64,000 bases of DNA from Octopus sinensis (Eukaryota): contig NC_043019.1 in the NCBI RefSeq assembly GCF_006345805.1, positions 16,553,360 to 16,617,359 on the forward strand. Direction: 5' to 3'. Both the position numbers and the translations under genes were made by a program. Each line of letters starts with the position of its first letter. The stretch's first letter is position 1. The notes under the pieces are model-generated. The model made no database searches, was not told the DNA's origin, and was given only the letters and a program-made list of their open reading frames with translations. This document shows positions 37,101-40,100 of the stretch, piece after piece.

Positions 37101-40100
37101 GAGGCCAAACCTTTCGAGTTCTTTTACAGAGCTTTGAAGAACTGAAGGACCGCTGCAATAAGTGTGTGAATCTGCTGAGAGGAGAATATATTGAATGAAA
37201 TCCTAATTAACTGATCCTCCTCTATTTTCTTTTACTCAAAGCCAGGAACTCTTTCAGCACCCTCTCCTACACACACACACACACACATGTATAGATCTCT
37301 ATGTGTTTAACTTATTGTGTGTTTATGTGTAGGGTAAGGTTGTGTGGTTCGAAAGTCCGCTTTGCCAGCCATGTGGTTTTCAGTCCCTCTGCGCGAAACC
37401 TTGAACAAGTTTGTTCTATATAGTCCCAGGTCACCAAAGTCTTGTGATGTACTTGGGAATCGAAACCCACGGGGAAGCCAGTCATGCGTGTATTTTCATT
37501 CTTAGTTCAACCACAACTTGTTTTTTCTAATATTCAAATATTCAATATATCTTAATGTACTTATATTGCACTGTACTCGAGTGCTCGCCCGTGTGTGTGT
37601 GTGTGTAGACCTACACACAAGTGCACCTGGTGACACCGCCACCAACATTTTACACGCTAATATCTGAAATACCTACTTGTTGTATCCATACACAGTAACT
37701 ACTACAAAAGGACTGAGATGATTATTGTACTCAAAACGGACAGAGAATAGCTGTTTCTTAATTCTATCTCCTTATATAGAGACATTTTAAATAAATCAAT
37801 CGCGATGACGCCATATACTTCCTCCTCTCAACTGTCCCTGCTTTCAACAATTGTTACAAATATATTTTCTTCTTCTTCTTCTCTCCCCACCACACATTTT
37901 TTCTCCTTCTCTATTTTCTTTTCTTCTTCTATTTTTACTTCTATCTCTATCCCTTTCTCTCTTTCTTTAAACTTTCTTCTCTACTTCCCTTTTCTCTCTC
38001 TCTCTTTCTATTTCGACTGCCGCATCTAGTTTTTTTTTCTTTTAATTAAAATCCTCGTTTTTTGGGGTTTTTTTCCTATCCACCAATCTCACTTTATTTC
38101 AATTTTTTCTCTTTTGTTTTCCTCGAAATTCTCTCTTTTTGTCATAAATATAATTTATATCTCATCTCTCATCTTTTTTTCCTCATCTTCTCCCCCACCC
38201 CTCCGCATCTCCTTCAGATACCATGACTCCTCTCTCCCGCATTCTCTCTCTCTCTCTCTCGCCATGCATCTCCTCCTCCGTCTCTTTTATAACCTTTCCT
38301 TTAACCTCCTCCTCTCTATTGACTCCACTTCCGGTTATTATGATGTCAGCCGAAATGACGTTTCCAGGAAGTGAATGAGGATGGTTGTTAGCGCTGTTCT
38401 GATTGGTTGTTTTACTCGACGGCATGGAGGCGTGGTTAGTCACGAGGGAGGCGTGTGTTTGTGTTCATGTCCTCTTTATCATTATTGTGTGTCTATACAC
38501 TACTCCATGTGTGTGTGTGCTGTCGCGTGCGTCGTTTGCGTTTGTACGAGCGCGTGTATGTATGCGTGTGTGTGTGAGTGTGTGTGTTTGTGCGCGCGCG
38601 CGCGTGCTGACGTGATCGGACGTTGTTTCCTTACGCAACCATTCCTTGTTTGTTTGTTTGTTTGTTCGTTGTGTTTCGCTGTTTCCCCCTCTTCACTCAT
38701 TTCGCTTCGACTCTTCGCAACATTCTCACACGATTCGCTTGAGTCGTTCGGTCGTTCAGTCGTTCACCCGACTTTTTTTCTTATTTACCCGTCAACTACG
38801 ATCGCTTACTTTAACATTTACCAACTCCCCACTCAACAGACCGCTCGTGTTATGATCGGAGCCCCCCGCTTCCAAAGAAACAACTTCAATTCGAACCTGA
38901 ATCACAACAAAATTACATAGAAACAAAGTTTCCCTGACTTTTTTTTTTTATTATTAAAAAAAAAAAAAGTTCATACAAACGTCGACAATTATCACAAGAA
39001 GACTAAGAAATATTTCGTCACTCGCTCTATTATGAACGTGGTCATGCTGGAGCCCACACTTTACCAACACGGCCCTGGGCCCTGGTTTCGGCCTGCTCCC
39101 TTTTACTGTGGTAGACGAACTCACTGCGCTTGTAACGCTTGTTACAGGGGCAACGGTGGCGGTGGTTGTTCGCACCAGATGTGGATAAACATGTCACAAC
39201 AACGAACACGCCAGGTAAACAAATTGGCATTTCTTTGTGGTTGCTAATTGCTTTTTGTATACAAGTAATTATGTCATCTCTCTCTCTCTCTCTCTCTCTC
39301 TACATATATATATATATATATATAGCTTTGCAGTTGCCTGTATAACTTATATTTTTTTAGATTTGACCATTGAATGGGGTGCATGTGTCCCTGTGTTGGT
39401 ATGAAAATATACTTTCCCCGAAAGATTGCCACACACATACACACACACACACACAAAGATATTGATTGTTTTGACGGACTTGTGTTTTGTCGATGTGTGT
39501 GTATAAGCGACGTAGGTTTGAATTATGAAAATAACTTCATTATGAATATAACATCATAGACGTATATATAGAAACTGTGTATTACTCTACGTTGACATTT
39601 GTATACAAACATACATTATTACTATAACTTGATCATAAAAAAAACTACGTTATTTGTTCGATTGTGTGGACAGAGACATTATACATATGTGGACTGTTTA
39701 AAGGGTATACTTGTACGTGTATGTTCGTAGCCCACGAGGTTTTATTATTATTATTTTAGTATCACTCGGTAGTTAGGGTTTGCGATATTTGTTTCGGTTC
39801 TTTACTTTCAGAGTTCAAATTCCGCCGAAGCCGTATTTGCATTTCATACTTTCGGGATTGATAAAATAAAGTAGCAGGGGTCGATGGTGAATTGTGCCTA
39901 AATCGGAAACGTGTTGAATTTAGTTGGGAGTTGAGAGACAACGTCAGCTACTTTTAGAATGATGGGATCGATATTGTTTAATAGGGATTTAAACAAACGT
40001 GGTTCGGAAAGGAATTTCTGGCGTCTGCTTTCAGCTTGGGTGCGTAAGGTGCCTCGTACGGCATAGACATTACACATCCTTGTGCCCGTTTCAGCTGAAA

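What the first reader, a model, noticed from the sequence alone, without database searches (positions are those of the whole stretch)
38300..39220. Intronic promoter plus in-phase alternative first exon predicts a short REXO1 isoform with its own Cys/His-rich N-terminus
Seen: inside the 13.6-kb intron (34137-47785) is a CpG-rich stretch with ETS, CCAAT, GT-box and TGACGT motifs. It is followed by an ATG-initiated 61-codon frame ending at CAG|gtaaac in phase 0, the same phase as the next REXO1 acceptor (47786). Inference: splicing would give ~469 aa (61+408), keeping the KVP..IRQRYL block, Cys-rich region and DEDDh nuclease but dropping more than 930 aa of mostly low-complexity N-terminus. The new leader ([14 protein letters not shown]...CSH) could bind metal. 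From memory, the vertebrate REXO1L1/GOR N-terminus also starts ML...P.WF.P, so a short isoform may be old; this resemblance is weak and unverified.
Basis: partly seen in the sequence, partly recalled or inferred. Interest (0 to 1): 0.75.

Follow-up and report, generated by a model that had tools for sequence, protein, structure and literature searches.

The report
Short octopus REXO1 from intronic promoter
An extra first exon hidden in an intron of the octopus RNA-trimming gene REXO1 is spliced onto the gene's back half in public RNA data, and it likely yields a compact enzyme shaped like yeast Rex3; this is real and corrects current gene models, but it is a familiar kind of gene arrangement.

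Summary
The exon is real and used. The 61-codon frame (39032-39214), its phase-0 donor and the window's strongest CpG peak check out. Contigs splice 39214 to 47786 in 6 of 7 RNA-like runs laid (six studies, chosen because they hold the exon); one also shows the ordinary 34136-47786 junction. The predicted 469-aa protein already exists as an O. bimaculoides UniRef entry, leader 56/61 identical. RefSeq fuses the exon into the long protein there and lists only the long form for O. sinensis. The short form drops 972 aa (N-terminal Cys/His motif, basic clusters, acidic motif) and keeps KIX, CHORD and DEDDh: yeast Rex3's layout. Corrections: RNA extends 5' to about 38490, not 38690-38760; the GOR resemblance scores no better than shuffles, and the mammalian short form joins about 120 aa earlier, so likely convergent. 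Translation, start site and metal binding are untested.

The parts
38320..38460 (+). Putative intronic promoter: ETS x2, TGACGT, reverse CCAAT, GT-box x2
   Evidence: Motifs and clustering; single match in the genome; not covered by 3 RNA-like runs but covered by the DNA-like run. Promoter activity inferred.
38480..39031 (+). 5' leader of the alternative first exon (about 550 nt; start approximate), CpG-rich, with four upstream ATGs (38507, 38558, 38562, 38852)
   Evidence: Contigs cover 38678-39031 in 3 of 3 RNA-like runs and about 38486-38549 in one; upstream ATGs. 38550-38677 is a repeat that the tool skipped.
39032..39214 (+). Coding part of the alternative first exon, 61 codons, six Cys and three His
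   Evidence: Translation; 56/61 identical, no indel, in O. bimaculoides A0A0L8GL75; single copy.
39215..39220 (+). Splice donor GTAAAC, phase 0
   Evidence: Loose ends equal to the start of exon 47786 in X1, X7, X9; the reverse view in X5, X8, X18.
33999..34136 (+). Last exon specific to the long form; competing donor for the 47786 acceptor
   Evidence: Junction seen in X18; O. sinensis XP_029649748.1 and O. vulgaris CAI9739765.1 join it directly to the KIX exon.
47786..47920 (+). First shared exon; begins just before KIX helix 1
   Evidence: The common contig starts at 47784 in 3 of 3 runs that laid; helix 79-96 in the model.
48646..57153 (+). Remaining shared exons: rest of KIX, CHORD, DEDDh nuclease, stop
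   Evidence: Exon-by-exon match to XP_029649748.1; junction 47920-48646 in 3 runs.

Best explanation
An alternative first exon inside the REXO1 intron is spliced in frame to the exon that begins the KIX domain, and it likely starts at its own CpG-rich promoter and encodes a 469-aa Rex3-like exoribonuclease with an Octopus-specific 61-aa leader. Shown: the exon, its splice, coexistence with the long junction, an intact KIX-CHORD-DEDDh set, conservation in a second Octopus species. Inferred: promoter at 38320-38460, start near 38480-38490, translation from 39032. Predicted function: the short enzyme trims RNA 3' ends as Rex3 does, but lacks the long form's N-terminal Cys3His motif, its 19 basic clusters and its conserved acidic LFG motif, so it would be less tied to the Elongin A/TFIIS transcription machinery. 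The leader is most likely a flexible, lineage-specific tag, and mammals likely reached similar short forms independently.
For: Junction 39214-47786 in 6 of 7 RNA-like runs, six studies. No RNA-like cover at 38288-38475 or 39228-39500 in 3 runs, where the DNA-like run has contigs. Both upstream exons meet one common contig in X18; bin arithmetic implies two incoming contigs in X5 and X8 as well. A 469-aa O. bimaculoides entry starts at the same Met. KIX R82/E110/E111, all 8 CHORD Cys/His and D311, E313, D394, D448 are present, and invariant or nearly so in 16 aligned relatives; H443 present. The three KIX helices are modelled at pLDDT 71-94 directly after the junction. Yeast Rex3 has this layout and needs the KIX region for RNase MRP RNA processing (PMC12129344, sections 8-10 read). 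Basic clusters: 19 in the dropped part, 0 in the leader, 2 in the core.
Against: No protein-level evidence. Contigs cannot show a start site, and 38550-38677 was skipped as repeat, so a further upstream exon is not excluded. Four upstream ATGs, three in frame and closed by the stop at 38918-20, could suppress translation. Four in-frame ATGs in the exon leave the true N-terminus open. The leader is less conserved than the core (56/61 against 403/408) and no better than the low-complexity long N-terminus (838/890), so selection on it is not shown. The DNA-like run did not cover 38946-39321, so it is no control for the junction itself. The runs were picked for holding the exon, so 6 of 7 is not a prevalence. 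The role of the acidic LFG motif is my inference; the TND review passages read do not name REXO1.
Confidence: 0.75

Rival explanations
1. The transcript is real but mainly regulatory or poorly translated: upstream ATGs in the 550-nt leader absorb scanning ribosomes, or translation begins at a later ATG (39179, 39191) so that the Cys/His stretch is never made.
For: Four upstream ATGs; later in-frame ATGs; leader conservation no higher than the low-complexity N-terminus, and a second frame is also open for 50 codons here.
Against: A at -3 of ATG 39032; no indel in 61 codons between species, while a 3-codon indel lies just upstream of the ATG; junction in frame with an intact enzyme.
Confidence: 0.17
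2. The exon is an internal cassette of the long mRNA, as in RefSeq's 1435/1440-aa O. bimaculoides models.
For: Those two RefSeq models; four phase-0 AGs exist between the upstream stop and the ATG.
Against: One unbranched contig runs 38678-39215 through those AGs in 3 of 3 runs (the tool skipped loose ends at 38936-38972). The AGs have weak pyrimidine tracts (0.41-0.53). The two RefSeq versions differ in this linker. O. sinensis and O. vulgaris long proteins lack the exon.
Confidence: 0.05
3. The leader is an old homolog of the mammalian GOR/REXO1L N-terminus, so the short isoform goes back to the bilaterian ancestor.
For: A shared W-F-x-P word; mammals do have short REXO1 forms.
Against: Scores at chance level; the mammalian leader joins before the PTAQEV motif, whose octopus counterpart is the exon near 15135, two exons earlier; no such leader among 240 rows listed for the core.
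Confidence: 0.03

Closest known systems
O. bimaculoides UniRef100_A0A0L8GL75 (469 aa, 'Exonuclease domain-containing protein')
   Same: Same start, length and junction; leader 56/61, core 403/408 identical.
   Different: Filed as a stand-alone entry beside a 943-aa N-half (A0A0L8GL96), not as an isoform; RefSeq fuses the exon into the long protein.
Yeast Rex3 (Rex3/REXO1 clade; PMC12129344)
   Same: KIX + single CHORD + C-terminal DEDDh with little N-terminal to the KIX.
   Different: Rex3 is a whole gene; this is an isoform of a 1380-aa gene with an unrelated 61-aa leader. Substrates here are unknown.
Mammalian short REXO1 forms and GOR/REXO1L1
   Same: Short proteins with their own N-terminus on the same core (P0017 type; a second type in pig, horse, wombat, bear and rat entries). 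REXO1L1 is monoexonic (PMC4422118, passage), which fits a retrocopy of such an mRNA (my inference).
   Different: They join about 120 and about 50 aa further upstream; the leader shows no significant similarity to the GOR type (the second type was not scored).
C. elegans PQE-1 isoforms; Drosophila Prage
   Same: One locus giving products with different domain sets (PMC3861114, passages: a lacks, b has the nuclease). A short nuclease-bearing PQE-1C is recalled only; the two papers were not held.
   Different: PQE-1a keeps the N-half, the reverse of this case; Prage lacks the KIX domain (PMC12129344, section 10), which this form keeps.

Membership tests
Rex3/REXO1 clade DEDDh exoribonuclease | N-terminal KIX three-helix bundle with conserved Arg, Glu, Tyr | tested here: met
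   PF15870 hit beginning 5 residues after the junction; helices 79-96, 100-116, 121-141; R82, E110, E111 invariant in 16 of 16; Y124 seen invariant in the alignment.
Rex3/REXO1 clade DEDDh exoribonuclease | Single CHORD domain, two C3H sites, just before the nuclease | tested here: met
   C220, C223, C241, H244, C263, C264, C273, H279 invariant in 16 of 16; this part of the model is low confidence.
Rex3/REXO1 clade DEDDh exoribonuclease | C-terminal DEDDh site with DCEM, DL, IQ and a Tyr/Phe in Exo I | tested here: met
   D311, E313, D394, H443, D448 and Y316; best fold matches SDN1, ISG20, ISG20L2, Pan2.
Rex3/REXO1 clade DEDDh exoribonuclease | 3'-5' exoribonuclease activity | not testable with these tools
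   Needs an assay.
Alternative first exon from an internal promoter | Spliced to a shared downstream exon that also takes the upstream donor | tested here: met
Alternative first exon from an internal promoter | Capped 5' end at this place, no upstream exon | tested here: inconclusive
   RNA cover stops near 38486 beside the motif cluster, but contigs cannot show starts and a repeat was skipped.
GOR/REXO1L-type N-terminal leader | Significant similarity to the mammalian leader | tested here: not met
GOR/REXO1L-type N-terminal leader | Joined at the same position of the core | tested here: not met
   About 120 aa apart, judged from protein alignments, not from mammalian gene structures.
Zinc finger (SWIM-like CxC-xn-CxH spacing, recalled) | Family profile match and a folded metal site | tested here: inconclusive
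   Spacing C32-x-C34-x11-C46-x-H48 is present and kept in both species, but Pfam gave 0 families at E<=1, PDB best E 6.9, single-sequence model pLDDT 44.

The most novel reading that the evidence does not exclude
Octopuses built a new zinc-binding module from intronic sequence and put it on a Rex3-sized nuclease that is the main REXO1 product in some tissues, redirecting it from paused polymerase II to other RNAs; mammals independently rebuilt compact Rex3-like enzymes from other introns of the same gene.
Probability: 0.12. Interest if true: 0.62.

Novelty: new member of a known kind. Interest (0 to 1): 0.33.

Why it matters
It corrects three inconsistent Octopus REXO1 models (split, fused, long only). 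Animal REXO1 was called functionally uncharacterised in PMC12129344. A natural, expressed, mostly folded 469-aa form lets one test the nuclease apart from 972 aa of low-complexity N-terminus, and ask why animals repeatedly make Rex3-sized forms. It is not a new mechanism.

Tried and rejected
Leader homologs: a word-based search gave 1 hit among 2 candidates, O. bimaculoides. A profile-free search of 1.84 billion representatives gave 0, but it also missed that known hit, so it is weak. The ESM Atlas gave no usable hit. The own genome gave only the locus and one E=0.87 match. In a cluster from a 72%-identical relative, 15 of 19 members were listed; the 5 whose sequences I read, including a 469-aa one, carry no separate leader at this junction. 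Absence outside Octopus is therefore not shown. Run X21 (organism D) laid nothing, which proves nothing. No run is on record as RNA; the spliced ends are what mark them as RNA. I laid 8 of 24 listed runs, on two short stretches, not across the whole intron. Rfam: 0 matches in 37800-39900. A transposon origin found no support: single matches for promoter and exon, with the tool's caveat on repeats. The PDB match to an amphioxus PGRP3 Cys stretch (E 6.9) was rejected as chance. The contig depths derived (short/long 128/28, 21/13, 302/71) are flat contig means from runs chosen for this exon, open to 3' bias; they suggest only that the short form is not a trace. Literature: octopus+REXO1 0 papers; REXO1+isoform+alternative promoter 1 and REXO1+short isoform 2, unrelated by listing; REXO1 195 papers, 40 listed. 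One search was swamped by unrelated words. No supplements were read.

Full report
Setting. The window holds most of an octopus REXO1 gene on the + strand. The O. sinensis RefSeq protein XP_029649748.1 (1380 aa) matches it exon by exon, 100% over residues 39-849; exon 1 lies about 27 kb upstream of the window. The intron in question runs 34137-47785.

Observation. The frame from ATG 39032 to 39214 has 61 codons and ends at CAG|GTAAAC in phase 0, like the acceptor at 47786. The three CpG-richest 500-bp bins of the window start at 38501, 38251 and 38751. The enrichment holds outside the microsatellite (o/e 1.94 in 38680-39030). ETS, TGACGT, CCAAT and GT-box motifs lie within 38327-38456, the only 150-bp stretch with all four classes (permutation P 0.012; classes chosen after the fact). 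Promoter and exon each gave one match in the genome.

RNA evidence. Twenty of 24 listed runs hold the stretch; none is on record as RNA. I laid 8. On 38100-39500, X1, X7 and X9 (three studies) each gave one contig from 38678 to 39215 whose loose end is the start of exon 47786; none covered 39228-39500 or 38288-38475. The DNA-like X16 covered the promoter and the intron but not 38946-39321, so it controls for silent flanks, not for the junction. On 47500-47945, X5, X8 and X18 (three more studies) had loose ends equal to the end of the new exon, and behind 47920 equal to the next exon; X18 also showed the 34136 donor; X21, another organism, laid nothing. The shared contig starts at 47784 in all three, as expected where two upstream exons merge. 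Bin arithmetic gives short/long contig depths of 128/28, 21/13 and 302/71, a weak hint only. Contigs cannot prove a start.

Annotation. O. bimaculoides UniRef A0A0L8GL75 is the 469-aa form, filed beside a 943-aa N-half; RefSeq instead inserts the exon into 1435/1440-aa models through a linker read from the 5' leader. In this genome one unbranched contig crosses that stretch and the candidate AGs are weak, so the fused model is probably an artefact. The O. sinensis and O. vulgaris entries found are long forms without the exon, and no leader-bearing entry from them came up.

What the protein is. The junction falls just before KIX helix 1. KIX, CHORD and DEDDh residues are intact, and the fold search returns DEDDh RNases. 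This is the layout that PMC12129344 (abstract, passages and sections 8-10 read) gives for yeast Rex3, whose KIX region is needed for RNase MRP RNA trimming; the paper also notes that REXO1 binds the N-terminal domains of Elongin A and TFIIS and is enriched at paused polymerase II. The short form loses 972 aa: the N-terminal Cys3His motif, 19 basic clusters (0 in the leader, 2 in the core) and an acidic LFG motif found in 11 of the 16 long forms printed (absent from one gastropod, one bivalve pattern aside, and from three vertebrate entries; two further entries printed no row). That motif resembles the helix-plus-acidic-linker motifs that bind TFIIS N-terminal domains (PMC9987994, passages; REXO1 is not named there), so weaker coupling to transcription is my inference.

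The leader. It has six Cys and three His, all kept in O. bimaculoides, but at 92% identity that is unremarkable. It differs at 5 of 61 positions against 5 of 408 in the core and 52 of 890 in the long N-terminus. Pfam, PDB, Atlas and representative searches gave nothing usable, and models are low confidence. A CxC-x11-CxH spacing recalls SWIM fingers (recalled, untested). Four upstream ATGs and three later in-frame ATGs leave translation open.

The GOR lead. Mammalian short forms exist in the collection: one type with the GOR-like start, another with a different start. The GOR type joins before the PTAQEV motif, about 120 aa upstream of the octopus junction; the octopus counterpart of that motif is in the exon near 15135. 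Similarity is at chance level (1 of 13 pairs at P 0.04, the rest 0.07-0.98; profile score beaten or matched by 797 of 991 shuffles). Convergence is the better reading. REXO1L1 is monoexonic (PMC4422118, passages). C. elegans pqe-1 also makes isoforms with different domain sets (PMC3861114, passages).

Verdict. A real, spliced alternative first exon that likely gives a Rex3-sized REXO1. The protein sequence was already deposited for a sister species, though not as an isoform; my searches found no paper on it. The arrangement is of a common kind, so interest is modest (0.33); a zinc-binding, retargeting leader remains possible (0.12).

Noticed in passing
window 38362-38370: A perfect TTCCAGGAA palindrome (STAT-type site, motif recalled) overlaps the second ETS site in the intronic promoter.
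   Followed up: no
window 38507-38920: Three upstream ATGs share one frame with the main ATG and end at the stop at 38918-20; the longest frame is 137 codons and built largely from GT repeats.
   Followed up: partly
window 38751 and 39030: Runs differ from the assembly in the 5' leader (8-nt gap in X7 and X9; T>C at -2 in X1, X7, X9) but at no listed place in the 183 coding bases; too few changes to test.
   Followed up: partly
window 15135-33999: O. bimaculoides RefSeq models lack about 24 aa that O. sinensis, O. vulgaris and a more distant relative have at the end of the exon near 15135; possibly another model error.
   Followed up: no
proteins P0013, P0016, P0028, P0066, P0077, P0115: A second mammalian short REXO1 N-terminus, alike in pig, horse, wombat, bear and rat entries, joins about 50 aa before the KIX exon.
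   Followed up: no
L001 500-1500: The region upstream of the main first exon has milder CpG enrichment (o/e up to 1.35) and none of the ETS or CCAAT motifs of the intronic promoter within 1.5 kb.
   Followed up: partly
window 39500-40500: A second CpG-rich stretch (20-24 CpG per 500 bp) lies just downstream of the new donor.
   Followed up: no
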